64,000 nucleotides of DNA, from the NCBI GenBank assembly GCA_052327205.1, contig CM126226.1, forward strand, positions 37,510,001 to 37,574,000. Reading direction: 5' to 3'. Source of the DNA: Somniosus microcephalus. Lineage: Eukaryota. A program made the position numbers and the translations under genes. Below, piece after piece: positions 4,905 through 63,811 of this stretch. Positions within the stretch are counted from its first letter, which is position 1. The number at the start of each line of letters is the position of its first letter. Under the pieces are notes generated by a model. It ran no database searches. It was not told where the DNA came from and saw only the letters and a list, made by a program, of their open reading frames with translations.

Positions 4905-5660
4905 AGATCATAAGAAATAGGAGCAGTAGGCCATTCGGCCCTTCGCCCATTCAATAAGATCATGGCTGATCTTCTACCTCAACTCCACTTCCCCGCCATG
5001 TCCCCATATCCCTTGATTCTCTTGGTGTCAATAGATTCACAACCCTCTGAGTGAAGAAATTTCTCCTCACCTCAGTCCTAAATGGTTGGTGCCTTATCCT
5101 AAGACAATGACCCCTAGTTCTAGACTCTCCAGCCGGGGGAAATGGCCTCCCAGCGTCGACCCTATCAAGCCCTCTAAGAATTTTATACGTTTTATACTTC
5201 CCATTCTTCTCAACTCCAGAGAATATAGGCCCATTCTACGCAATCTCTTCTCATAGGACAACCTTCTCATCCCAGGAATCAATCTAGTGAACCTTCATTG
5301 CACCACCTCCAAGGCAAGTATATCCTTCCTTAGGTAAGGAGACCAAAACTTTATTCGTACTCCAGGTCTGGTCTCGCCAAAGCCGTATATAATTGCAGCA
5401 AGACTACGTTACTATTATACTCCCTTAGAAGCTAACATATTATATGCCTTCCTAATTGCTTGCTGTACCTGCATGTTAACCTTCAGAGGGATTTGTGTAC
5501 GAGAACACACAAATCCCTCTGAATCCCAACATTTACAAGTCTCTCATTTTGTAAAAAATATTCTGCTTTTCTATTCTTCCAACCAAAGTGGACAATTTCG
5601 CATTTCCCCACATTATAAGCTACCTGCTACCTTCTTGTCCATTCACTCAACCTGTGATAA
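4905..5660 (-). mobile_element. CR1 LINE 3' fragment
   Basis: ORF 5094-5282 (MIPGMRRLSYEKRLRRMGLYSLELRR) is the CR1 ORF2 C-terminus. Typical cataagaaataggagcag...ggccattcggccc tail. Confidence 0.85.
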
Positions 5661-5744: not shown

Positions 5745-6050
5745 ATGCAAAAGCAAATTACTGCGGATGCTGGAAATACTCAGCAGGTCAGGCAGCATCT
5801 GTGGAGAGAGAAACAGAGTTAACGTTTCAAGTCGATGACCCTTCGTCAGAACTGGAAAAAGCTGGAGATGTAACCGATTTTAAACACGTGTAGGGGCAGG
5901 GAAAGGGGGGAGGGGAGGAAAGAACAAAAGGGAAGGTCTGTGATAGGATGGAAGGCAGGAGAGATTAAGCGAGATTAAGAGATGGTGCAAGGCAAAAGGT
6001 AATGGGACAAGTTAAGAAACAAAAGATGGCTCTCGATGAAGTGTAAATGG
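5745..6050 (-). mobile_element. Penelope-like element terminal repeat / 3' region
   Basis: gatgctggaaatactcagcaggtcaggcagcatctgtggagagagaaacagagttaacgtttc block, also present at 17.0-17.3 kb and 49.35-49.46 kb. Contains a hammerhead core. Confidence 0.65.
5817..5853 (-). ncRNA. Minimal type-I hammerhead ribozyme motif (intact core)
   Basis: Minus strand reads AGUU-CUGACGA-A-GGGUC-AUC-GACUU-GAAA-CGUU-AACU: stem I AGUU/AACU, CUGANGA core, stem II, GAAA, palindromic ACGU in place of stem III, GUU cleavage triplet. Confidence 0.7.
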
Positions 6051-9574: not shown

Positions 9575-11025
9575 ATTAGCCATTCACCGCCAGATCTGAC
9601 TGGACCACATAAAGCATGATCGGGTCCTGCTCTCGTCTGCCGAAATTGCTCACTATTCCAGAATCATTCTGGAATGCAGAGATAAATCCCGGCTTCTATT
9701 CTCCACTGCTAACCATCTTCTTTAACCGCTCTCCCCTGTCTCCTCCACCCTCATTTCCGACAAGTGCGAGGAGCTCATGGACTTCTTTGTCTCCAAGATT
9801 GAGACCATCTGTTCAGCTGTCTTTGCCACTTCCCTTCATTCCCCTAGCCCACCGGGCCAAACTTCCTCTGAGGTTCCCCCCTGCCCTAGCCCTGATCTCA
9901 CATCTTTCTCCAGTTTCTCTCCGATCTCCCCTCATGACCTCTCCACGCTCATCTTGTCCATGAGTCTCGCTTCCTGCTCCCTCGGCCCTATTCCCACGAT
10001 ACTGCTGACCACCCAACTTCCTTTTCTGGCTCCCATGTTAGCTGACATTGTTAACAGTTCTCTCTCCTCAGGTACTGCCCCCTCTCCCTCAAATCTGCCG
10101 TCGTCACCCCTCTCCTCAAAAAAACAACCCTTGACCCCCTCCGTCCTTGCAAATTACTGCCCAATCTCCAACCTCCCTTTCCTCTCAAGTCCTTGAACGT
10201 GTTGTCGCCTCCCAAATCCGTGCCCATCTTTCCCGCAATTCCATGTTTGAATCCCTCCAATCAGGTTTCCGCTCCTGCCATAGTTCCGAAACTGCTCTCA
10301 TCAAAATCACAAATGACATCCTTTGTGACTGTGACGAAGGTAAACTATTCTTCCTCGTCCTTCTTGACTTGTCTGCAGCCTTTCACACGGTTGACCACTC
10401 CACCCTTCTCCAACGCCTCTCCACCGTCGTCCAGCTGGGTGGAACTTCACTCGCCTGGTTCCATTCTTATCTATCCAATCGTAGCCAGAGAATCACCTGC
10501 AACGGCTTCTCTTCCCACTCCCGCATTGTTACCTCTGGTGTCCCCCAAGGATCTATCCTTGGCCCCCTCCTATTTCTCATCTACATGTTGTCCCTTGGCG
10601 ACATCATCTGAAAACACAGCGTCAGTTTCCACATGTACGCTGACGACACCCAGCTCTACCTCACTACCACTTCTCTCGACCCCGCCACAGTCTCTAAATT
10701 GCCAGACTGCTTGTCCGACATCCAGTTCTGGATGAGCAGAAATTTTCTCCAATTAAATATTGGGAAGACCGAAGCCATTGCTTTTGGTCCCCGCCACAAA
10801 CTCCGTTCCCTAGCCACTGACTCCATTCCTCCTCTTAACATCTGTCTGAGGCTGAACCACACTGTTTGCAAACTTGGTGTCATATTTGACCCTAAAATGA
10901 GCTTCCGACCACATATCCGGAGCATAACGAAGACCACCTATTTCCACCTCCAGAACATCGCCCGCCTCCGCCCTTGCCTCAGCTCATCTGCTGCTGAAAC
11001 CCTCATCCATGCCTTTGTTACCTTC
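9575..11025 (+). mobile_element. L2 LINE internal fragment with a decayed reverse transcriptase ORF
   Basis: ORFs 9777-10196, 10147-10611 and 10633-11091 carry QSGFR..HSSETAL, LLDLSAAF, GVPQGSILGPLLF and YADD (10636-10647). One in-frame TGA at 10609-10611 and frameshifts upstream. Confidence 0.95.
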
Positions 11026-14600: not shown

Positions 14601-16229
14601 ATACTAATGCTCTGGGAATGTGCAAGGGTAAGGGCTCATTACTAGCCATCACCACATGTTGAGTATGTGACGTTGGTGTGACCACTTTATCCCCAATGTT
14701 AAACCAGATAGGGGGTGGAACATTCTTAAATTAAGGCTGTGAGCACATGCAAAGCAAGACCCAGTCACGATGTGCACAAGCAGTCCTTTCAGAGATGTGT
14801 ACAGCATTAGAAAACTGGACCTTTTTCTGTCCAATTTTCACTTTGTTTTGAGATACCTTGGTTACCACTGAAAGCACTGGGCTGTTAAAAAAATAATAAT
14901 AAAGCAGCGGTGTTCCTAGGAACAGTGTGTAATGATGCTCACCTTATAACTAAAATCACAGGGCGAGTCATCCAGAGTTACTGCTGCACATCTCCTTGCA
15001 ACCAACTCGAGCAGAGTTAGAATTTAAACAGCTATGCTTATTTGCTGCAATGGCATATTGCCAGCATACACCTTGTCTACAATCGGCAAGAAGGTCAGAT
15101 ATTAAAAGCAGTAGATATTAAAAGCAGTTGATATTAAAAAGTTTGTCTCCTAATATTACACAAGCATGTGCATGTAAGGCACATAAATCCATGCAGTTTT
15201 AAAAATCCGTTAAGTGCATTTGTGTGCACAGCCTCCTGGCTCTAAGGAATCTGTATTCCCATCAGTTGGGAATGGAATCAATACACTGCATAAATAAAGA
15301 TCCAAATTTGCTTATTTCTGTACAGCAAGCAATACTGCTGTTATTTCCCTTCGAACTGGGCAAAAGAAGGAAAATGTATCTTCATTTTTTGTGTCTGTGC
15401 TCAAACTCCTCCCACTTTCTTGTTGGCTCTGATTATGGTGTTTCCTTGCAAGCTTATCTGCCACACAACAATGACATCATCTCTTAATCTGACATTATGC
15501 ATCGGTTTGAATAAAGCTTACAGTGAACTCCTTCACAGCAATCACTCCAGATTAGTTTGCTGAGTGCTTTCCCTTTTCAATCATCATGCTTTGTCATAAG
15601 CAGGGTTTTATATTGTAGCTGGAGTTTAGCAGGGTAAATGTGATTTCAGTGCCCCCTGCCCATTTTAGGTGAGATTGGGTAAATTGCAGAGGCAGCTGTA
15701 GGTGCTTCTCCGGTTCTCTGAAAGGAATGACTCAATGTGCACAAGCACAAAGCGTACCGTAAGGGTTTTTCTTGTTAAGTTTTTTAAATTATTATGACTC
15801 ATTGAAAGTGCTCAGAGAATGCCTCTTGAATAGAGCCTGTACATACAAAACAGGCTTCTGCCTTTCACTCGTGAAGCTTCTAACCCGCAATAATAGAGCA
15901 CAGGCTTGCGTGGGTGTCTTCAATTAACAGCTTTCAGAGCTCTACGTGAAAATATTTCTGAAGCACCTGGTGGAAGCTGGGCTTTACTGAGGGATTCTGC
16001 TGCCAAAACGCCAGAAATTTTTTTCACCTTCCTTTATTGTAAATATTGCATTAGTGAACTTTCTACCTTGGAGAAGAATACTATTATTATGGGTAACCTG
16101 CAGATTAGAGGTGACTTAATATTTATGTCAAGTAGTTTGTGGATATTCTTTCCTTGGTTCCACCCCTCTACAGTGGATGCCTGCTCTTTGTTTCATTTAA
16201 TCCTAAATTATTTCTCTCAAAATAGAGTG

Positions 16230-16625
16230 GAAAGCTCCCCGGATTGATCTGTGGGTAAATGCAGTGCATGGTTAGTGCTCAGCCATACTGACCAGGTGAT
16301 TTCATGTTCCATTCCTGGCCTGTATTGAGTTACTCCACTAGGGCAGCAGTTGGGGTGTTACAGTTGGCCTCGGTGGCCCTACTTTAAAGGGTAAAAGTTA
16401 GCTGGGGGTTCCAGCTGCTGATTTCTGCCCATTCCCTGCTGAAAAGTGCATGTGTATGGGGATCAGGTAAAGACTGGATCAAGCTCCGCTGTTGAATAAT
16501 CCTCCGACACACATGAAGAGTAGCCACTTGGGAGAGTTAGTGAAGGGCTGCAGGCCTTCCTGTGGAACTGCACCCCAGCAAGGACCAGTGTTTTCTGAAG
16601 AGGCACTAATTAGGATGAGGGAGAA
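16230..16625 (+). mobile_element. LF-SINE-like, full length
   Basis: gtgggtaaatgca...gaccagg...cctgctgaaaagtg...cacatgaagagtagccacttggg...gtggaactgcaccccagcaagg. Confidence 0.75.
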
Positions 16626-16724
16626 AAGCCAAAACATGGCCACTTGATAACATGCCATAAAGCTGCAGATTTGGTGCTTTGGAATGGTGCGGTGATTTCA
16701 GGTGTTATCCACAGGCAGGGTAGA

Positions 16725-16943
16725 AAAAAAAAGGACTTGCATTTATATCACAACCTTAGGACGTCCCAAAGCGTTTCACAACCAATGAATTACTGAATTG
16801 TAATCACTGTTGTACTGTAAGAAATGCAGCAGCCAATCCGTGCACAGCAAGGTCCGACAAACAGCAATGTGATAAATGATTAGATAATCTTGTTTTGGTG
16901 ATGTTGGTTGAGGGTCAAATTTTGGCCAGTACACCAGGAGAGC
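16725..16943 (-). mobile_element. DeuSINE 3' half
   Basis: gacttgcatttata...ggacgtcccaaagcg...gatgttggttgaggg. Confidence 0.8.
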
Positions 16944-17003
16944 CGAGTGGCTTGTCGAGGCCATTTCAGAGGGTAGTTAAGAGCCAACCACATTTGCTGT
17001 CAG

Positions 17004-17288
17004 AAGATGCTGGAAAAACTCAGCAGGCCAGGCAACATCCGTGGAGAGAAATAGAGTCAACGTTTCGGGTCAAACCCTTTGTCGAGACTGAAAAAGCACA
17101 GGAAATGAAATAGATTAAAATCTATTTTAATCTATTTCATTTCCTGTGCTTTTTCAGTCTTGACAAAGGGTTTGACCCGAAACGTTGACTCTATTTCTCT
17201 CTCCACGGATGTTGCCTGGCCTGCTGAGTTTTTCCAGCATTTTCTGTTGTTATTTTGGATTTCCAACATCTGCAGTATTTTGCTATCG
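17004..17288. mobile_element. Non-autonomous Penelope-like fold-back insertion with a 15-bp TSD
   Basis: Inverted arms at 17001-17121 and 17124-17246 differ by two substitutions and a 2-nt indel. CACATTTGCTGTCAG is duplicated at 16989-17003 and 17289-17303. Confidence 0.8.
17156..17190 (+). ncRNA. Minimal hammerhead ribozyme motif, U3-A8 core variant
   Basis: AGUC-UUGACAA-A-GGGU-UUG-ACCC-GAAA-CGUU-GACU. Confidence 0.55.
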
Positions 17289-17624
17289 CACATTTGCTGT
17301 CAGTCTGGAGTATAGGCCAGACTGGTTATGGATGGCAGATTTCCTTCCCTAAAGGACATTAGTGAACCAGATGGGTTTTTACGACAATCCGATAGTTTCA
17401 TGGTCACCATTACTGATACGAGCTTTATTTATCCAGAATTATTTAATTAATTGAATTTAAATTCCCCAGCTGCCGTGGTGGGATTTGAACTCACATCTCC
17501 GGATCATAACATAACCACTATGCTTCCGTTCTCCTAATTTCTGACTTAGAAGGAACAAGAGAGGAGCAATGACCACAGTGGTACCAACAAAATAGATGAA
17601 AAACTTCGAGAGGTGAGAGAGGTT

Positions 17625-18130
17625 CCACATCGGAACAGGAGTAGGCTATTTAGCCCCTCAAGCCTATTCCGCCATTGAAATCATGGCTGATCTGTGACTT
17701 AACTCCATATACCTGCCTTTGCCCCTTATCCCTCAGTACCTTTGGTTAACAAAAATCCATCAATCTCAAATTTAAAATTAACAATTGACCTAGCATCAGC
17801 TGCCATTTGCGGAAGAGAGTTCCAAACTTCTACCACCCTGTGTGTGTAGAAGTGTTTCCGAACTTCACTCCTGAAAGGTCTGGCTCTAATTTTAAGGTTA
17901 TGCCCCCTAGTCCTAGACTCCCCAACCAGCGGAAATAGTTTCTCTCTATCTACCCTATCAGTTCCCCTTAATATCTTGAAAACTTCAATCAGACCTCCCC
18001 TTAACCTTCTAAATTCTAGGGAATACAGCCCTAGTTTGTGTAATCTCTCCTTGTAATTTAACCCTTGGAGTCCATGTATCATTCTGGTAAACCTACGCTG
18101 CACTCCCTCAAAGTCCAATATATCCTTCAC
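17625..18130 (-). mobile_element. CR1 LINE 3' fragment
   Basis: ORF 17726-18130: EGVQRRFTRMI...LYSLEFRRLRGGLIEVFKIL...TRGHNLKI...RVVEVWNSLP. Confidence 0.95.
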
Positions 18131-18799
18131 CCATCAGATAGCGCATGTTTCTGTATCCTGTTCAAAAGAATGAGATAGAAGTGTTCGAAGAGCCGAGAAT
18201 ACAGAGACAGTATTCAAGCCTTGGATGGACTTAGGTTTTATAGAGTTATGGCTTACTGTAGAATATGTGTAATACAAAACCAAATAATGGCTCTGTAGCG
18301 TTGTTTGAAAGTGTCAGCCTTTCCCTTTAGTGATGAAAGGACAGGCAGCAATAGAAACAAATTTGAAAACTTGTTTTCTCTTGGACACATTTATCAAAAT
18401 GAAGTCCTGCAGTCCCATGATTCAGCACGCAGAGATCATTTCACAATTGCTGCCTATTCGAGTCACGGCCCTACCAGGCCTTGTCACCGCACTGGTGGTT
18501 TTATGATCTGAAATTGAATAATCACAACCCCTGGCACCCTGATTCTATTCTTGATGCAGGCCAGGTAAAGAATGCATCTCATTAATTCTATTGCTGCAGA
18601 TAGTTTCTGTGGCGGGTCCTGTTTAGTGATTCAGGTCACTGATTCTTCCAGAGGGAGTGCTGTGGATCTGTACAGAGTGTCTCAGCTTTGCACTAGCAAT
18701 CCAGGTGCAACTGTTGCAGTCCTCCGTTGAAGAGACCCTGCTCTCCATAGTCAGGATGCATAATGGAGTATAGTATTTTGAATTTTTAGCAATAGGAAA

Positions 18800-19085
18800 A
18801 GGCCAAAGAAGCCCGTCCCTTCTTGATAGACCTGAACTCCACCCACCCACCTTTTCACCATATCCCTCAAATGCTTCTCTCTTTAAAACACATCTAATTG
18901 CCTCTTGATTGCATTTCTACTGACTACTCCTGTGCTAATTTATTCCATAATTCTATTACCCTTAGGGTGAAAAAATTCCCCCTGATTTCCCTTTACTGCT
19001 CCTAACTTTCAGGTTGTATCCCATGGCAGTTGAACCCCTGACCACAGTGAAGAATTTGCCTGCCCAATTCTGTTAATTATTTCCC
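18800..19085 (-). mobile_element. Degenerate CR1 3' fragment
   Basis: ttattccataattctattacccttagggtgaaaaaattcc... resembles the CR1 'RVV..WN' region in reverse complement. Confidence 0.5.
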
Positions 19086-19182
19086 TTATTTTGCTAAGAC
19101 AGAAACCTTGCTGTAAATATTATTAAAAATCTTCCATCTGCGCACATTTCCTGTCAACAAGTCATGCTGTAATTACAGCCTT

Positions 19183-20303
19183 TCTTAGGCAGTCTCTCTT
19201 AAGCAGTCCCTCGGAACTGAGGATGACTTGCTTCCACATTAAAAATGAGTTCGCAGGTGACTGATGAGTCCAGTGCGGGACCTACAGTCTCTGTCACAGG
19301 TGGGGCAGACAGTGGTTGAAGGGGCGGGTGGGTGGGGTGCTTGGATTGACGTGCGCTCCTTGCGCTTCGCTTCCGCTTGCTCCCGGCAAAGAGACTCGAG
19401 GTGTTCGGCGCCTTCCCGGATGCTTCTCCTCCACTTTGTGCGGCCTTGTGCCAGGGTTTCCCAGGTGTCAGTGGGGATGTTACACTTTTTCAAGGAGGCT
19501 TTGAGGGTGTCCTTGAAGCGTTTCCTCTGCTCCCCTGGGGCTCTCTTGCCGTGCTGGAGCTCTGAGTAGAGCGCTTGTTTTGGGAGTCTCGCATCGGGCA
19601 TGCAGACAATGTGACCCGTCCATCGGAGCTGATTGAGCATGGTCAAAGCCTTGATGCTGGGGATGTTGGCCTGAGCAAGAACACTGACGTTGGTGTGCCT
19701 ATCCTGCCAATGGATTTGCAGGATCTTGCGGAGGCAGCGTTGGTGGTACCTCTCCAGTGCTTTGAGGTGCCTGCTGTACATGGTCCATGTCTCTGAGGCA
19801 TACAGCAGGGCGGGTATCACTGCTGCTCTGTAGACCATGAGCTTAGTGCCGGGTTTGAGGTCCTGGTCTTCAAACACTCTCTTCCTCAGGTGACCGAAGG
19901 CTGCACTGGCACACTGAAGGCGGTGTTGGACTTCGTCGTTGAAGTCTGCCCTTGTTGACAGTAGGCTCCCGAGGTATGGAAAGTGGTCCACGTTGTCCAA
20001 GGCCTTGTAGTGGATTTTGATGATTGGGGGGCAGTACTGTGTGGTGGGGGCAGGCTGGTAGGGGACCTTTGTCTTACGGATGTTTAGTGTAAGGCCCATG
20101 CTCTCGTACGCTTCGGTGAAAGTGTTGACGATGGTTTGGAGTTCGACCTCTGAGTGAGCGTTGTCTGCATACTGTAATTCGACGACAGAGGATGGGACGA
20201 CCTTGGATCTGAGCTGGAGGCGACGGAGGTTGAACAGTTTCCCGTTTGTTCTGTAAATTAGCTCCACTCCAGTGGGGAGCTCACTGAGGGTGAGATGGAG
20301 CAG
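19183..20303 (-). mobile_element. RTE-clade LINE, 5' truncated, with an open 357-aa ORF2 C-terminus
   Basis: ORF 19239-20312: YRTNGKLFNLRRL, ELQYADN (YADD-derived), GLTLNIRKTKV, FPYLGS, LLYASETW, QLRWTGHIVCMPDARLPKQALYSEL, and a C-terminal C2H2 finger CPTC...HLRTH. Confidence 0.95.
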
Positions 20304-20809
20304 CAGAGACACTACAGCACCTCAGTTTGTAATTTCCAACTCCTCAGCCTCTGCCATAGAGAAACTCCCGTCTACTTTTCTGCTTCCCAAATTGCCGTAA
20401 GTTTATCTATTCAACTATAAATAATTAAAAATGGAAGTGTTCTATAAAAATAAGGGCAAAATGTTTGACTTCAAAGTGAGGACAGAACTACACTTGAGAG
20501 CCCAATTATCCCTCACTTCACCTGAAGGCTACACTTGGTCTCGACGACCTGTGTGCTATGGCACAGCGTTCAACCAGTAGGTGTGGATTCTGCTACATGT
20601 ATAAAAAGGCAAACTGCTGTCAATGTGCCTGAAAATATTGCACCAACAAATAACTCTGTAGTATGTGGCTCAAAATCAGCTCACGTTGAGGATTATTCTC
20701 ATCAAACTGTATTATCTGTTGGTCAGGACCATGTGTTGCCACTGTAGGCAGGAGATTATAAACACAAGTTCAACCGAACAGTCTAGCCATCTATATTAAC
20801 GACATCAAT

Positions 20810-38864: not shown

Positions 38865-39272
38865 GAAGGAAAGAGTTTGCATTTATTTATATTACATCAG
38901 TGACTGCACTTCAAAAGTACTTCATTGGTTGTAAAGCACTTTGGGATATCCTGAGGTCGTGAAAGGTGCTATATAAATGCAAGACTTTTTTTTCCCTTTA
39001 TATACCATCTTACACAGCCTCAGGATGTCCCAAAACACTCACTGGTGCCAACACCGCAGCCAATGGGCAGTTAATCAGTTTTGACGTTGAAGGATGAATG
39101 TTGTCTAGGATACCCAGAGAGCTCCCCCACTCTGAAAATGGGATCTTGGATATCCACCTGAACAGGTACAGAGGTCTCATTCAAAACATAGCATCTCTGA
39201 CAATGCAGTACTTCCTCAGTATTATACTGAAATATCAGCCTAGATTACGTGATTAACTTTTAGTGGGGCTTG
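38865..39272. mobile_element. Minus-strand DeuSINE with a plus-strand DeuSINE tail (~38890-38995) inserted in its tail
   Basis: Two oppositely oriented ...tataaatgcaag tails are adjacent. Confidence 0.65.
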
Positions 39273-41509: not shown

Positions 41510-41950
41510 GTCATGTAGTGGTTATGTCACTGGACTAGTAATCCAGAGGCCTGGATTAATGATGCGGAGACATGAGTTAAAATCCCACCACGGCAGCTGG
41601 GGAATTTAAATTCAGTTAATTAAATAAATCTGGAATTAAAAAGCTAGTATCAGTAATGGTGACCATGACACTACCGATTGTCGTAAAAACCCATTTGGTT
41701 CACTAAATCTACTGTCCTTACCTGGTCTGGCCTATGTGATTCCAGACCCACAGCAATGTGGTTGACTCTTAACTGCCCTCTGAAATGGCCTCGCAAGACA
41801 CTCAGTTGCACCAAACCACTATGAAAAAGACCTTCACCACATGGTTTAAGAAGGTGGCTCACCACCATTTTCTCAAGGGCATTTAGGGATGGGCAATAAA
41901 TGCTGGCTTTGCCAGCGACGCCCACATCCCGTGAATGAATAAAATAAATC
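41510..41950 (+). mobile_element. Third-family tRNA SINE, full length
   Basis: A-box tagtggttatgtcactgg, B-box-like gagttaaaatccc, and tail gggcaataaatgctggctttgccagcgacgcccacatcccgtgaatgaataaaa. Confidence 0.85.
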
Positions 41951-49075: not shown

Positions 49076-49137
49076 ACCATCCGACCCGACCACAAACATT
49101 AGTATTATTTGTGGGGGAAATTACCAGGGCTGCTGGA

Positions 49138-49350
49138 TCATAGAATGATGCAGCACAGAAGGAGGCTATTCGGCCCATCATGCCTGTGTCAGCTCTTTGG
49201 TAGAGCTATCCAATTAATCCCATCGCCCTGTAATTTTTTTCCCTTCGTGTATTTATCCATTTCGCTTTTGAAAGTTATTATTGAATCTGCTTCCACCGCC
49301 CTTTCAGGCAGCGCATTCCAGATCACAACAACCCGCTGTATAAAAAAAAT
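49138..49350 (-). mobile_element. CR1 3' fragment
   Basis: ORF 49189-49374: QRVVVIWNALPERAVEADS. Confidence 0.9.
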
Positions 49351-49465
49351 CTTCCAGTTCTGACGAAAGGTCATCGACCTGAAGCGTTAATGCCGTTCCT
49401 CTCTCCACAGATGTTGCCTGACTTGCTGAGTGTTTTCCTAGCATTTACTATTTTTATTTTAGTTT
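49351..49465 (+). mobile_element. Penelope-like terminal repeat fragment with a mutated hammerhead (49356-49392)
   Basis: AGUU-CUGACGA-A-AGGUC-AUC-GACCU-GAAG-CGUU-AAUG, followed by ctctccacagatgttgcctgacttgctgag. Confidence 0.65.
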
Positions 49466-49804
49466 TATTTCACGTGGGTTAATATGTTATGCATATTTAT
49501 GCAATGCAGAATAATGTTGCATCGTGCTGTTATGAAAGCAGCTTTGTTTTTTTATAATTCAAAGACAGGTGACCCACTGTAAAGGTGAGGTTGTCCCATC
49601 GTGCTGTAGTTCTTGTAATGAGGCCTCGGCTCTGCTGAATCACTGCAGAGTGTGCACTTTAGGTCATGAGCCGATGTAGGCAAGCCTTAAATTACTCTAA
49701 ATCAGTTGTTTCTGAAACAAGTCACAGAAATATACAAGGGAGTGATTACACTTCAATGGTAGAGGAAACAATGAAAAATTGGAAGCCTGAAATCAAAACA
49801 GGAG

Positions 49805-55045: not shown

Positions 55046-55734
55046 ATATAAATGCAAGTTGTCATTGTACCTGATGTTCCTAACACCACAACCCCCAACT
55101 TAATGACTATAGCATTTTATGAACTAAATTTAGGAAGGAAAAATGGAAACTTCCAAACTAAAAAATCCAACGTAAATATATCTTTTGAAATGAAGAGTGC
55201 TGGTACTTTCTGTGTTGTTTCTGGCTCTGATGGATAAGAGTGGAGATTGGGCTCTAGGTACTGAAGCAAATGCAGAGAAGCTGATAATGGTATCGTAGAG
55301 TGTAAATCCAGCCAGCAGTGACACCAAGAACTAACTGATTGTGGGATACTCCGCAGAGTACAGGCGACCTGGCTGTTTACTTAAAGGGAGTTTGCAGAGT
55401 TAGATGGGTGTTAAAGGTGCAGGAAATGATGTGGGACCCTGACATGAATCTTGTCATTCATGTGGAAATGACTTATGAAATAATACTGGGCAGCCTGCTG
55501 GTGGCGCTGTCCAGGGAGAGTATAAATACTCGGGCATGGGCCCAGCTTGCTCAGGACATTCTTTAACAGGAACTAGTGAAAGACACAACTAGACCACCAT
55601 GTTGTAAAACAGTTGATTAAATTGACGTAAGAAAACTACTAGGCACTTGGTCTAAGCTTTGTTTAATGCTTAGAACAAGTGCCTCGTAGTTTTCCTACGT
55701 CAGACCCTAATTCACATCCTCTGAAACTGCTGCA

Positions 55735-57589: not shown

Positions 57590-57828
57590 CCCCGGGTCTG
57601 TTCCAGAGTTTGAGCGGCCCCGGGTCTGTTCCAGAGTTTGAGCGGCCCCGGGTCTGTTCCAGAGTTTGAACGGCCCCGGGTCTGTTCCAGAGTTTGAGCG
57701 GCCCCGGGTCTGTTCCAGAGTTTGAGCGGCCCCGGGTCTGTTCCAGAGTTTGAGCGGCCCCGGGTCTGTTCCAGAGTTTGAACGGCCCCAGGTCTGTTCC
57801 AGAGTTTGAATGGCCCCGGGTCTGTTCC
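57590..57828. repeat. 28-bp minisatellite, about 8.5 copies
   Basis: Unit CCCCGGGTCTGTTCCAGAGTTTGA(G/A)CGG; period 28 (ttccagag at 57601, 57629, ...). Confidence 0.95.
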
Positions 57829-62939: not shown

Positions 62940-63808
62940 GGAGGGGTCGGTGGCTGGAAGATCTTCGGAAGCATCGGGGGCTGGAGGATCTTCGGCGGGG
63001 TCAGGGGGTGGAGGATCTTCGGCGGGGTCGGGGGGGTGGAGGATCCTCAGAGGGGTCAGGGGGTGGAGGATCCTCGGAGGGGTCAGGGGGTGGAGGATCC
63101 TCGGAGGGGTCAGGGAGTGGAGGATCCTCGGAGATGTCAGGGGGTGGAGGATCCTCGGAGGGGTCGGGGTGGAGGATCCTCGGAGGGGTCAGGGGGTGGA
63201 GGATCCTCGGAGGGGTCAGGGGGTGGAGGATCCTCGGAGGGGTCGGGGTGGAGGATCCTCGGAGGGGTCAGGGGGTGGAGGATCTTCGGAGGGGTCAGGG
63301 GTGGAGGATCCTCGGCGGGGTCAGGGGGTGGAGGATCCTCGGAGTGGTCGGGGTGGAGGATCCTCGGAGGGATCACGGGGTGGAGGATCTTCGGCGGGAT
63401 CAGGAGGTGGAGGATCTTCGGCAGGGTCAGGGGGTGGAGGATCCTCGGGGGGGTGGAGGATCCTCGGAGGGGTCACGGGGTGGAGGATCTTCGGCGGGGT
63501 CGGGGGGTGGAGGATCCTCGGAGGGGTTGGGGGGGTGGAGGATTTTCGGCGGGATCAGGGGGTGGAGGATCCTCGGAGGGGTTGGGGGGGTGGTTGGGGG
63601 GGGTGGAGGATCCTCGGAGGGGTCACGGGGTGGAGGATCTTCGGCGGGATCAAGGGGTGGAGGATCTTCGGCGGGGTCAGGGGGTGGAGAATCCTCGGAG
63701 CGGTCAGGGGGGTGGAGGATCTTCGGCGAGGTCAGGGGGTGGAGGATCCTCGGAGGGGTCAGGGAGTGGAGGATCTTCGGAGGGGTCGGGGGGTGGCGGA
63801 TTCTCGGA
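62940..63808. repeat. G-rich ~27-bp minisatellite (about 30 units, 25-28-bp variants)
   Basis: Unit GGGGGTGGAGGATC(C/T)TCGG(A/C)GGGGTCA; tggagga recurs at 63064, 63091 and 63118. Confidence 0.95.
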
Positions 63809-63811
63809 GAG

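What the first reader, a model, noticed from the sequence alone, without database searches (positions are those of the whole stretch)
16989..17303. 285-bp fold-back Penelope-like retroelement with two opposed hammerhead motifs and a 15-bp TSD
Seen: arms 17001-17121 and 17124-17246 are near-perfect inverted copies (two substitutions that give G-U pairs on the plus strand, plus a 2-nt indel). CACATTTGCTGTCAG flanks both ends, and the insertion splits a SINE. Each arm carries a hammerhead motif, one per strand. The apex has a mini-hairpin (TAGATT-AA-AATCTA). Known: Penelope-like elements carry minimal hammerheads in their terminal repeats and often insert with inverted partial repeats. Inference: either a single fold-back/self-primed insertion event, or a member of a tiny non-autonomous ribozyme-bearing family (retrozyme-like). 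Read-through transcription would give ~120 bp of dsRNA, a possible Dicer/ADAR substrate, and this pairing would compete with ribozyme folding.
Basis: partly seen in the sequence, partly recalled or inferred. Interest (0 to 1): 0.75.

Follow-up and report, generated by a model that had tools for sequence, protein, structure and literature searches.

The report
Truncated Penelope retroelement, inverted-end insertion
This 285-base hairpin is real and is likely an ordinary stump of a Penelope-like retrotransposon, two copies of its ribozyme-bearing end set head to head in a pattern already described for this class, with a ribozyme predicted not to fold here.

Summary
In detail: inverted arms, a 2-nt spacer, a 15-bp target duplication and a split SINE. 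An inverted 5' copy, a one-sided tail, a palindrome at the junction and a target duplication are the published anatomy of Penelope-like element (PLE) insertions (PMC3846280, PMC8557442). Hammerhead pairs on opposite strands and the U3-A8 core seen here are also published (PMC4209133). Only the right arm has a complete minimal hammerhead; the left has a U4C core change. In the full hairpin the ribozyme helices are predicted not to form. The repeat is very abundant, and two older relatives in the window are single arms. One RNA run showed no reads on the unique upstream flank and no editing bias. No genome was held, so a shared apex, an empty allele and a link to a PLE protein remain untested. 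Most likely this is one insertion in which both nicked strands primed short cDNAs that joined at a small palindrome. Low interest.

The parts
16989..17003 (+). left copy of the 15-bp target-site duplication; part of the host repeat; its last 3 nt are microhomologous to the element at the left junction
17004..17121 (-). inverted copy of the element end, without tail; carries the three differences from the right arm
   Evidence: reads of alike copies carry the right arm's base at 17084
17055..17089 (-). minimal hammerhead-like motif with U3-A8 core plus U4C change; predicted impaired
   Evidence: found only with U4 relaxed
17108..17137 (.). apex: 9-bp mini-palindrome with 2-nt loop (17108-17127), 2-nt spacer between the long arms (17122-17123), repeat of the 9-mer (17129-17137)
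17124..17243 (+). direct (hammerhead-sense) copy of the element end, pLTR-like
   Evidence: 84% and 77% identical to relatives at 5767-5862 and 49352-49466
17156..17190 (+). minimal type I hammerhead: helix I 17156-59/17187-90, core 17160-66 (U3-A8), extra nt 17167, helix II 17168-71/17175-78, GAAA 17179-82, 2-nt palindromic insert, predicted cut after 17186
   Evidence: features as in PMC4209133
17244..17288 (+). one-sided 42-45 nt extension, matching the PLE 'tail'
   Evidence: PMC8557442 Fig. 2 legend, PMC11167929
17289..17303 (+). right copy of the 15-bp target-site duplication
16945..17000 (+). left half of the interrupted host repeat (SINE-like; label recalled)
17304..17507 (+). right half of the interrupted host repeat
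5752..5862 (-). older relative, single arm, canonical C3-G8 hammerhead core at 5817-5853
49352..49466 (+). older decayed relative, single arm

Best explanation
The 285-bp insert is likely a heavily 5'-truncated insertion of a Penelope-like retrotransposon: two copies of its hammerhead-bearing end lie head to head between 15-bp target duplications, and the mirror half was likely built during this one insertion. Inferred mechanism: (1) the element's protein, made elsewhere, nicked the two strands of a SINE 15 nt apart. (2) Each free 3' end primed reverse transcription, one at the outer start site (right arm with tail) and one at the inner start site about 45 nt further in (left arm, no tail, 3-nt microhomology). 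(3) Both cDNAs stopped after 120-165 nt. Being the same sequence, their 3' ends could pair only at a self-complementary patch, which gives the palindromic apex and tiny spacer. (4) Repair filled in the duplication. The copy encodes no protein and is predicted to be an inactive ribozyme: the motifs lie on opposite strands, so they cannot form the dimer that minimal hammerheads need, and in either direction of transcription the antisense arm is made first. Shown: anatomy, motif, abundance of the repeat. Computed: folding. Inferred: steps 1-4 and PLE identity. Odds: about 0.85 that it is an ordinary stump built at this site, about 0.55 for the two-primer route.
For: Anatomy matches Pen2a_Av: inverted pLTR next to a direct one, a TSD, a 31-bp tail on one side, a 15-bp overlap, and palindromes at head-to-head junctions (PMC3846280). 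It also matches the general PLE scheme (PMC8557442). A PLE protein cleaves and extends both strands in vitro, starts at two RNA sites that define the tail, is predicted to be a dimer, and does not need ribozyme cleavage (PMC11167929). The motif has the extra nucleotide before helix II, G10.1-C11.1, a palindromic 15.2-16.2 insert and the U3-A8 core described for PLE minimal hammerheads, and that paper also reports pairs 100-700 bp apart on opposite strands (PMC4209133). My descriptor gave 2 strict and 3 relaxed hits in the window, all in this repeat family, and 0 in 30 of 30 random 64-kb sequences. Helix pair probabilities are 0.59-0.84 in the right arm alone and below 1e-14 in the whole insert; forcing the fold costs 60 kcal/mol. 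2 of 3 family copies in the window are single arms. Tens of thousands of alike contigs were laid per DNA run.
Against: No PLE reverse transcriptase or GIY-YIG gene could be tied to this repeat: searches found nothing, and one search found one 71-aa unnamed protein. PLE identity therefore rests on anatomy and motif. The tail (42-45 nt) and TSD (15 bp) are longer than the published 30-40 nt and 8-10 bp. Two independent cDNAs ending at the same place is explained more simply by fold-back. That 17243-17246 is a recurrent start site of this family is not shown. The single-arm relatives are an older subfamily (77-84% identical), so they say little about this one. Depth of alike contigs stays high up to the apex bins, and none of the 24 loose ends shown (of 2304) lies at the apex; this leaves a shared apex open.
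Confidence: 0.55

Rival explanations
1. Same element and same single event, but the mirror arm arose by self-priming: one cDNA (or an antisense RNA template) folded back at the mini-palindrome, copied itself, then jumped to the other target end at the 3-nt microhomology.
For: A 2-nt spacer and a 9-bp mini-palindrome at the apex. Arkhipova et al. propose self-priming on an antisense template for head-to-head palindromic junctions. Family reads in the RNA run are 2-4:1 strand-biased, which in most stranded libraries means mostly antisense to the hammerhead (library type not confirmed).
Against: It gives no reason for the copy to stop 42-45 nt short, at a tail-like boundary. A plain snap-back would not give the extra 9-10 nt repeat at the apex. 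All 3 arm differences sit in one arm, but that has a 25% chance anyway.
Confidence: 0.27
2. A non-autonomous fold-back mini-element with a fixed apex that is transcribed as a hairpin and mobilised as a unit by PLE proteins.
For: The TSD encloses the whole hairpin. Both substitutions are A>G on the plus strand, as editing fixed by reverse transcription would give. The depth table does not exclude apex-spanning contigs. pLTRs can mobilise other sequence in trans.
Against: Two such substitutions occur 1 time in 4 by chance. One contig from a related species joins the right arm at 17128 after 334 unlike letters (record 18, one copy only). In the RNA run mean depth falls from about 790 to 300 to 38 across the bins approaching and crossing the apex, although hairpins drop out of libraries. 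The ends are asymmetric.
Confidence: 0.1
3. A longer inverted PLE insertion later lost its centre by palindrome-driven deletion or repair, leaving a near-perfect hairpin.
For: The 9-mer repeat at the apex looks like a repair scar (inference). Microhomology-mediated deletions are common in Penelope copies.
Against: A deletion that leaves exactly symmetric arms is not expected; central deletions usually widen the spacer (recalled knowledge).
Confidence: 0.05
4. Assembly or library artefact (fold-back chimera).
For: No contig listed spans the insert, and long-read support was not seen.
Against: The arms differ at 3 places, only one has the tail, the mirror stops at the TSD without copying flank, and an exact TSD encloses it.
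Confidence: 0.03

Closest known systems
Inverted-pLTR insertions of endonuclease-containing Penelope-like elements (Pen2a_Av and relatives, Arkhipova et al. 2013, PMC3846280; scheme in Craig et al. 2021, PMC8557442)
   Same: Inverted 5' copy head to head with a direct copy, tail on one side only, palindrome at the junction, TSD around the whole unit.
   Different: No ORF between the repeats; only 285 bp; TSD 15 bp against 8-10; tail 42-45 nt against 30-40.
Minimal hammerheads of metazoan PLEs, including the U3-A8 variant of Schistosoma Cercyon (Cervera and de la Pena 2014, PMC4209133)
   Same: 4-bp helix I, extra nucleotide before helix II, G10.1-C11.1, palindromic 2-nt helix III remnant, U3-A8 core, a pair of motifs about 100 bp apart on opposite strands.
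   Different: Helix II is only 4 bp with a 3-nt loop; the second motif has U4C; the variant is here in a vertebrate repeat, which I did not find described.
Poseidon element of Anolis carolinensis (Frangieh et al. 2024, PMC11167929)
   Same: Hammerhead in the terminal repeat; two reverse-transcription start sites would explain the one-sided tail; both strands are cut and extended.
   Different: No protein is available here; neither inferred nick lies at the ATT motif preferred in vitro; the clade of this family is unknown.
Non-LTR retrozymes (Li et al. 2026, bioRxiv 10.64898/2026.07.22.740005)
   Same: Non-coding, hammerhead-bearing, derived from PLE terminal repeats; reported in one chondrichthyan.
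   Different: Retrozymes are head-to-tail tandem arrays with at least two same-strand hammerheads; this is one head-to-head pair.

Membership tests
Penelope-like element (EN+) insertion | PLE-type reverse transcriptase with GIY-YIG endonuclease in full-length copies | tested here: inconclusive
   No ORF in the insert. Searches with its open frames found none or one unnamed 71-aa protein. No genome was held.
Penelope-like element (EN+) insertion | Terminal repeat carrying a minimal hammerhead | tested here: met
   conserved in the older relative at 5817-5853 with covarying helix I and core.
Penelope-like element (EN+) insertion | Inverted 5'-truncated copy adjacent at the 5' end, head to head | tested here: met
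Penelope-like element (EN+) insertion | 30-40 bp tail on one end only | tested here: met
   42-45 nt, slightly longer than published; its recurrence in other copies is not shown.
Penelope-like element (EN+) insertion | Target-site duplication around the unit | tested here: met
   15 bp exact; present once in the paralogous repeat. An empty allele at this locus was not seen.
Penelope-like element (EN+) insertion | Partial-tandem pLTR-ORF-pLTR arrangement in the family | not testable with these tools
   No genome; three collection scans and one protein-based scan found no other copy.
Minimal type I hammerhead ribozyme | Core with a Watson-Crick 3-8 pair, U4, GAAA, UH and helices I and II | tested here: met
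   Right arm (U3-A8). The left arm fails at U4.
Minimal type I hammerhead ribozyme | Self-cleavage, as a dimer or with protein help | not testable with these tools
   Predicted not to fold in the whole insert.
Non-LTR retrozyme | At least two consecutive tandem units with same-strand hammerheads | tested here: not met
   Motifs lie on opposite strands; no tandem array at the locus; definition.
Mobile fold-back family / MITE-like unit | Many loci with the same internal junction and different TSDs | tested here: inconclusive
   1 of 3 copies in the window is a fold-back; could not separate apex-spanning contigs.
Mobile fold-back family / MITE-like unit | Inverted repeats at both termini | tested here: not met
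   The right end carries 42-45 unpaired nt.
microRNA precursor | Sequence match to a known family | tested here: not met
   9 miRNA models scored on the hairpin and mir-16 passed its cut-off (39.1 against 36.5 bits), but the whole-window gathering search gave 0. Unrelated plant and animal families score alike, as any perfect stem does.

The most novel reading that the evidence does not exclude
A very abundant PLE subfamily with a U3-A8 hammerhead has spawned a fixed fold-back mini-element that is transcribed as a 120-bp hairpin and retrotransposed whole, carrying its own antisense lock on the ribozyme, with the two A>G changes as editing marks fixed by reverse transcription.
Probability: 0.08. 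Interest if true: 0.6.

Novelty: new member of a known kind. Interest (0 to 1): 0.2.

Why it matters
As a single locus it matters little: it is a dead stump in a published pattern. Its value is as a data point. How PLEs make head-to-head inversions is still open, and short inserts with both junctions, the apex and the TSD in 300 bp are easy to score by the thousand. If arms often come from different source copies, two-primer insertion is shown; if never, self-priming is favoured. The U3-A8 core with a covarying helix I suggests that selection kept the ribozyme in this subfamily, which gives a ready substrate for a cleavage assay.

Tried and rejected
No whole genome was held, so the copy census could not be run. 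A 22-nt family pattern found 0 matches in viral, metagenome and prokaryotic genome collections. A scan with the one related protein gave 596 pattern matches and 0 confirmed. Protein searches for a PLE ORF: nothing; one 71-aa unnamed hit, a cluster of 1, probably a spurious call on the same repeat. No RNA holder was listed for the stretch, which is no evidence either way. Laying 4 of the 24 listed runs at 90% likeness was flooded by repeat copies: 15 of 414 joints, 24 of 2304 loose ends and 40 of 112 variant rows were shown. No 300-nt skip is among those shown, so empty versus filled allele is unresolved. RNA begin/end piles at 17001-17007 and 17081 were rejected as likely effects of read assignment between the arms. 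Editing: places by kind in the RNA run (A>G 24, T>C 19, C>T 21, G>A 16) resemble the DNA runs (16-17, 15-16, 14-17, 11-15), and reads come from the family, not the locus. Host gene: Pfam on 45 of 54 frames of 110 aa or more and 131 of 174 frames of 68-109 aa gave one RVT_1 hit and one weak Ion_trans hit below cut-off inside a repeat; shorter exons were not tested. No TSD of 7 nt or more was found around the two older copies in the ranges searched. Rfam miRNA hits were rejected as generic hairpin matches.

Full report
Observation. The sequence at 16989-17303 is as described. The arms 17001-17121 and 17124-17246 are inverted copies with two substitutions and a 2-nt gap. They are the best of 22 inverted pairs within 1.5 kb in the window, and the region folds at -234.4 kcal/mol against -74.8 +/- 5 for 100 shuffles. 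The 15-bp direct repeat is exact. Of 51 runs of exact 15-mers 50-400 nt apart, 45 lie in one minisatellite, 4 in two other tandem arrays and 1 near a short array; the remaining one is this pair. The flanks match one continuous paralogous repeat at 41559-41803 that has the target once, and three joints show other copies of that repeat running across the site. So the repeat is a target duplication and the insert is 17004-17288. The labels SINE and shark are recalled, not given by any search.

The right arm continues for 42-45 nt with no mirror image (17244/17247-17288; the range reflects a 3-nt microhomology with the left duplication). In all three arm differences the right arm has the family state: the older relatives share it at 17006 and at the gap, and they and most alike RNA reads share it at 17084. 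The apex holds a 9-bp mini-palindrome whose right arm is repeated once more. I could not tell whether that repeat is native to the family.

The hammerheads. No Rfam hammerhead family was listed, at E<=1 over 15000-19500 or at gathering score over the window. My own descriptor found a minimal type I motif at 17156-17190 (+) with a U3-A8 core, and one at 5817-5853 (-) with the canonical C3-G8 core. The left-arm motif at 17055-17089 (-) appeared only when U4 was relaxed. There were 0 hits in 30 of 30 random 64-kb sequences; the descriptor was written after seeing the motif, so that control is lenient. Against the older copy, helix I changes a pair on both sides and the core changes C3-G8 to U3-A8. 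U3 is a subfamily trait: C at 17160 makes up 12% and 10% of contig depth in runs X1 and X3 and 81 of 462 RNA reads, but 68% in X4, a more distant organism. The 90% likeness filter favours copies like this one, and position 8 was not among the 40 of 112 rows shown. The right arm alone is predicted to form helices I and II (pair probabilities 0.59-0.84). In the whole insert they fall below 1e-14, and forcing them costs 60 kcal/mol on the plus strand and 56 on the minus. Because the arms are head to head, either direction of transcription makes the antisense arm first, and the two motifs cannot form a same-strand dimer (inference from the anatomy).

Other copies and expression. No genome was held. 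The window has two older relatives, 84% and 77% identical, neither with an inverted partner. Four of 24 listed runs were laid. X1 and X3 match the unique flank without difference (185 and 173 nt); X4 has 9 differences in 186. Each DNA run laid 52,000-70,000 contigs on the 1.1 kb, host repeat included. T-bearing depth at 17160 is roughly 20,000-36,000 times the flank depth in X1 and X3 and about 235 times in X4; the tool warns that this is no copy number, so I read it only as 'very abundant'. No listed piece spans the insert, and no 300-nt skip is among the 15 of 414 joints shown, so the allele state is open. A shared apex is open too: depth stays high to the apex and no loose end is shown there, while one X4 contig meets the right arm at 17128 after 334 unlike letters. 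In RNA run X21 (24% read, same species label as X1) depth is 0 over 16600-16710 and 0.43 per strand over 17562-17598, and A>G is not enriched. That is one tissue of unknown kind. No host exon was found in 176 of 228 frames scanned.

Mechanism. The best reading is one insertion by a PLE protein made elsewhere. Nicks 15 nt apart each prime a short cDNA, one from the outer start site (with tail) and one from the inner site (without), and the two identical 3' ends anneal at a self-complementary patch. This draws on the in vitro finding that a PLE protein cuts and extends both strands and starts at two sites that bound the tail (PMC11167929); its use here is inference. Self-priming, proposed for such junctions in PMC3846280, explains the tiny spacer as well but not the tail-length offset. 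I give 0.55 and 0.27. A mobile fold-back unit gets 0.10, later central deletion 0.05 and artefact 0.03.

Comparison with what is known. PMC3846280 describes an inverted pLTR beside a direct one, a 31-bp tail on one side, 8-10 bp TSDs, palindromes at head-to-head junctions and solo pLTRs (passages; sections 8 and 11). PMC8557442 gives the same scheme for PLEs in general (passages). PMC4209133 describes minimal hammerheads in PLE repeats, pairs 100-700 bp apart on opposite strands, a U3-A8 variant with about 1,300 hits in Schistosoma, and no cleavage by a monomer (parts 1-2 of 4). PMC11167929 was read in parts 1-2 of 4; a search of its 3 supplements for three terms found nothing. The retrozyme preprint 10.64898/2026.07.22.740005 was read in part 1 of 5 and in passages; it defines retrozymes as tandem units, which this is not. 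Its supplements are closed and may list this family. The insert meets four of the PLE features I could test; the protein link is unproven. I found no paper on this subfamily in searches, but the library is partial and repeat databases were not available.

Earlier scan notes. Two follow-up notes on other genomes report several similar fold-back PLE ends per window, one saying that their centres differ. They agree with my reading. They are unchecked AI notes, I could not test them, and I do not count them as support. Look-ups by sequence and place found nothing.

Verdict. Real, ordinary for its class, a new member of a known kind. Interest 0.2. The boldest reading not excluded, a hairpin mini-element that moves whole, has a probability of about 0.08.

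Noticed in passing
window 17156-17190 (+) against 5817-5853 (-): The subfamily's hammerhead differs from the older relative by covarying changes in helix I and in the 3-8 core pair; U3 is the majority state among alike contigs in two runs but not in a third, more distant one.
   Followed up: partly
window 17118-17302, RNA run X21: Family reads are strand-biased 2-4:1; in most stranded libraries this means mostly antisense to the hammerhead strand. It could reflect intronic orientation bias or antisense transcription.
   Followed up: no
window 19239-20321 (-): A 360-codon open frame that reads like the 3' end of an RTE-type LINE ORF (label recalled); no Pfam hit.
   Followed up: partly
window 10135-10608 (+): Reverse transcriptase fragment, Pfam RVT_1, E 3.5e-16.
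   Followed up: no
window 55623-55702, 38940-39034, 5473-5532: Three smaller near-palindromes with arms of 38, 43 and 26 nt and spacers of 4-9 nt.
   Followed up: no
window 57590-57828 and 62940-63809: Minisatellites: a 28-mer at 97% matches and a G-rich 27-mer array.
   Followed up: no
window 49352-49466: The decayed relative begins at an A run directly after another dispersed repeat (49136-49350), with no TSD found.
   Followed up: partly
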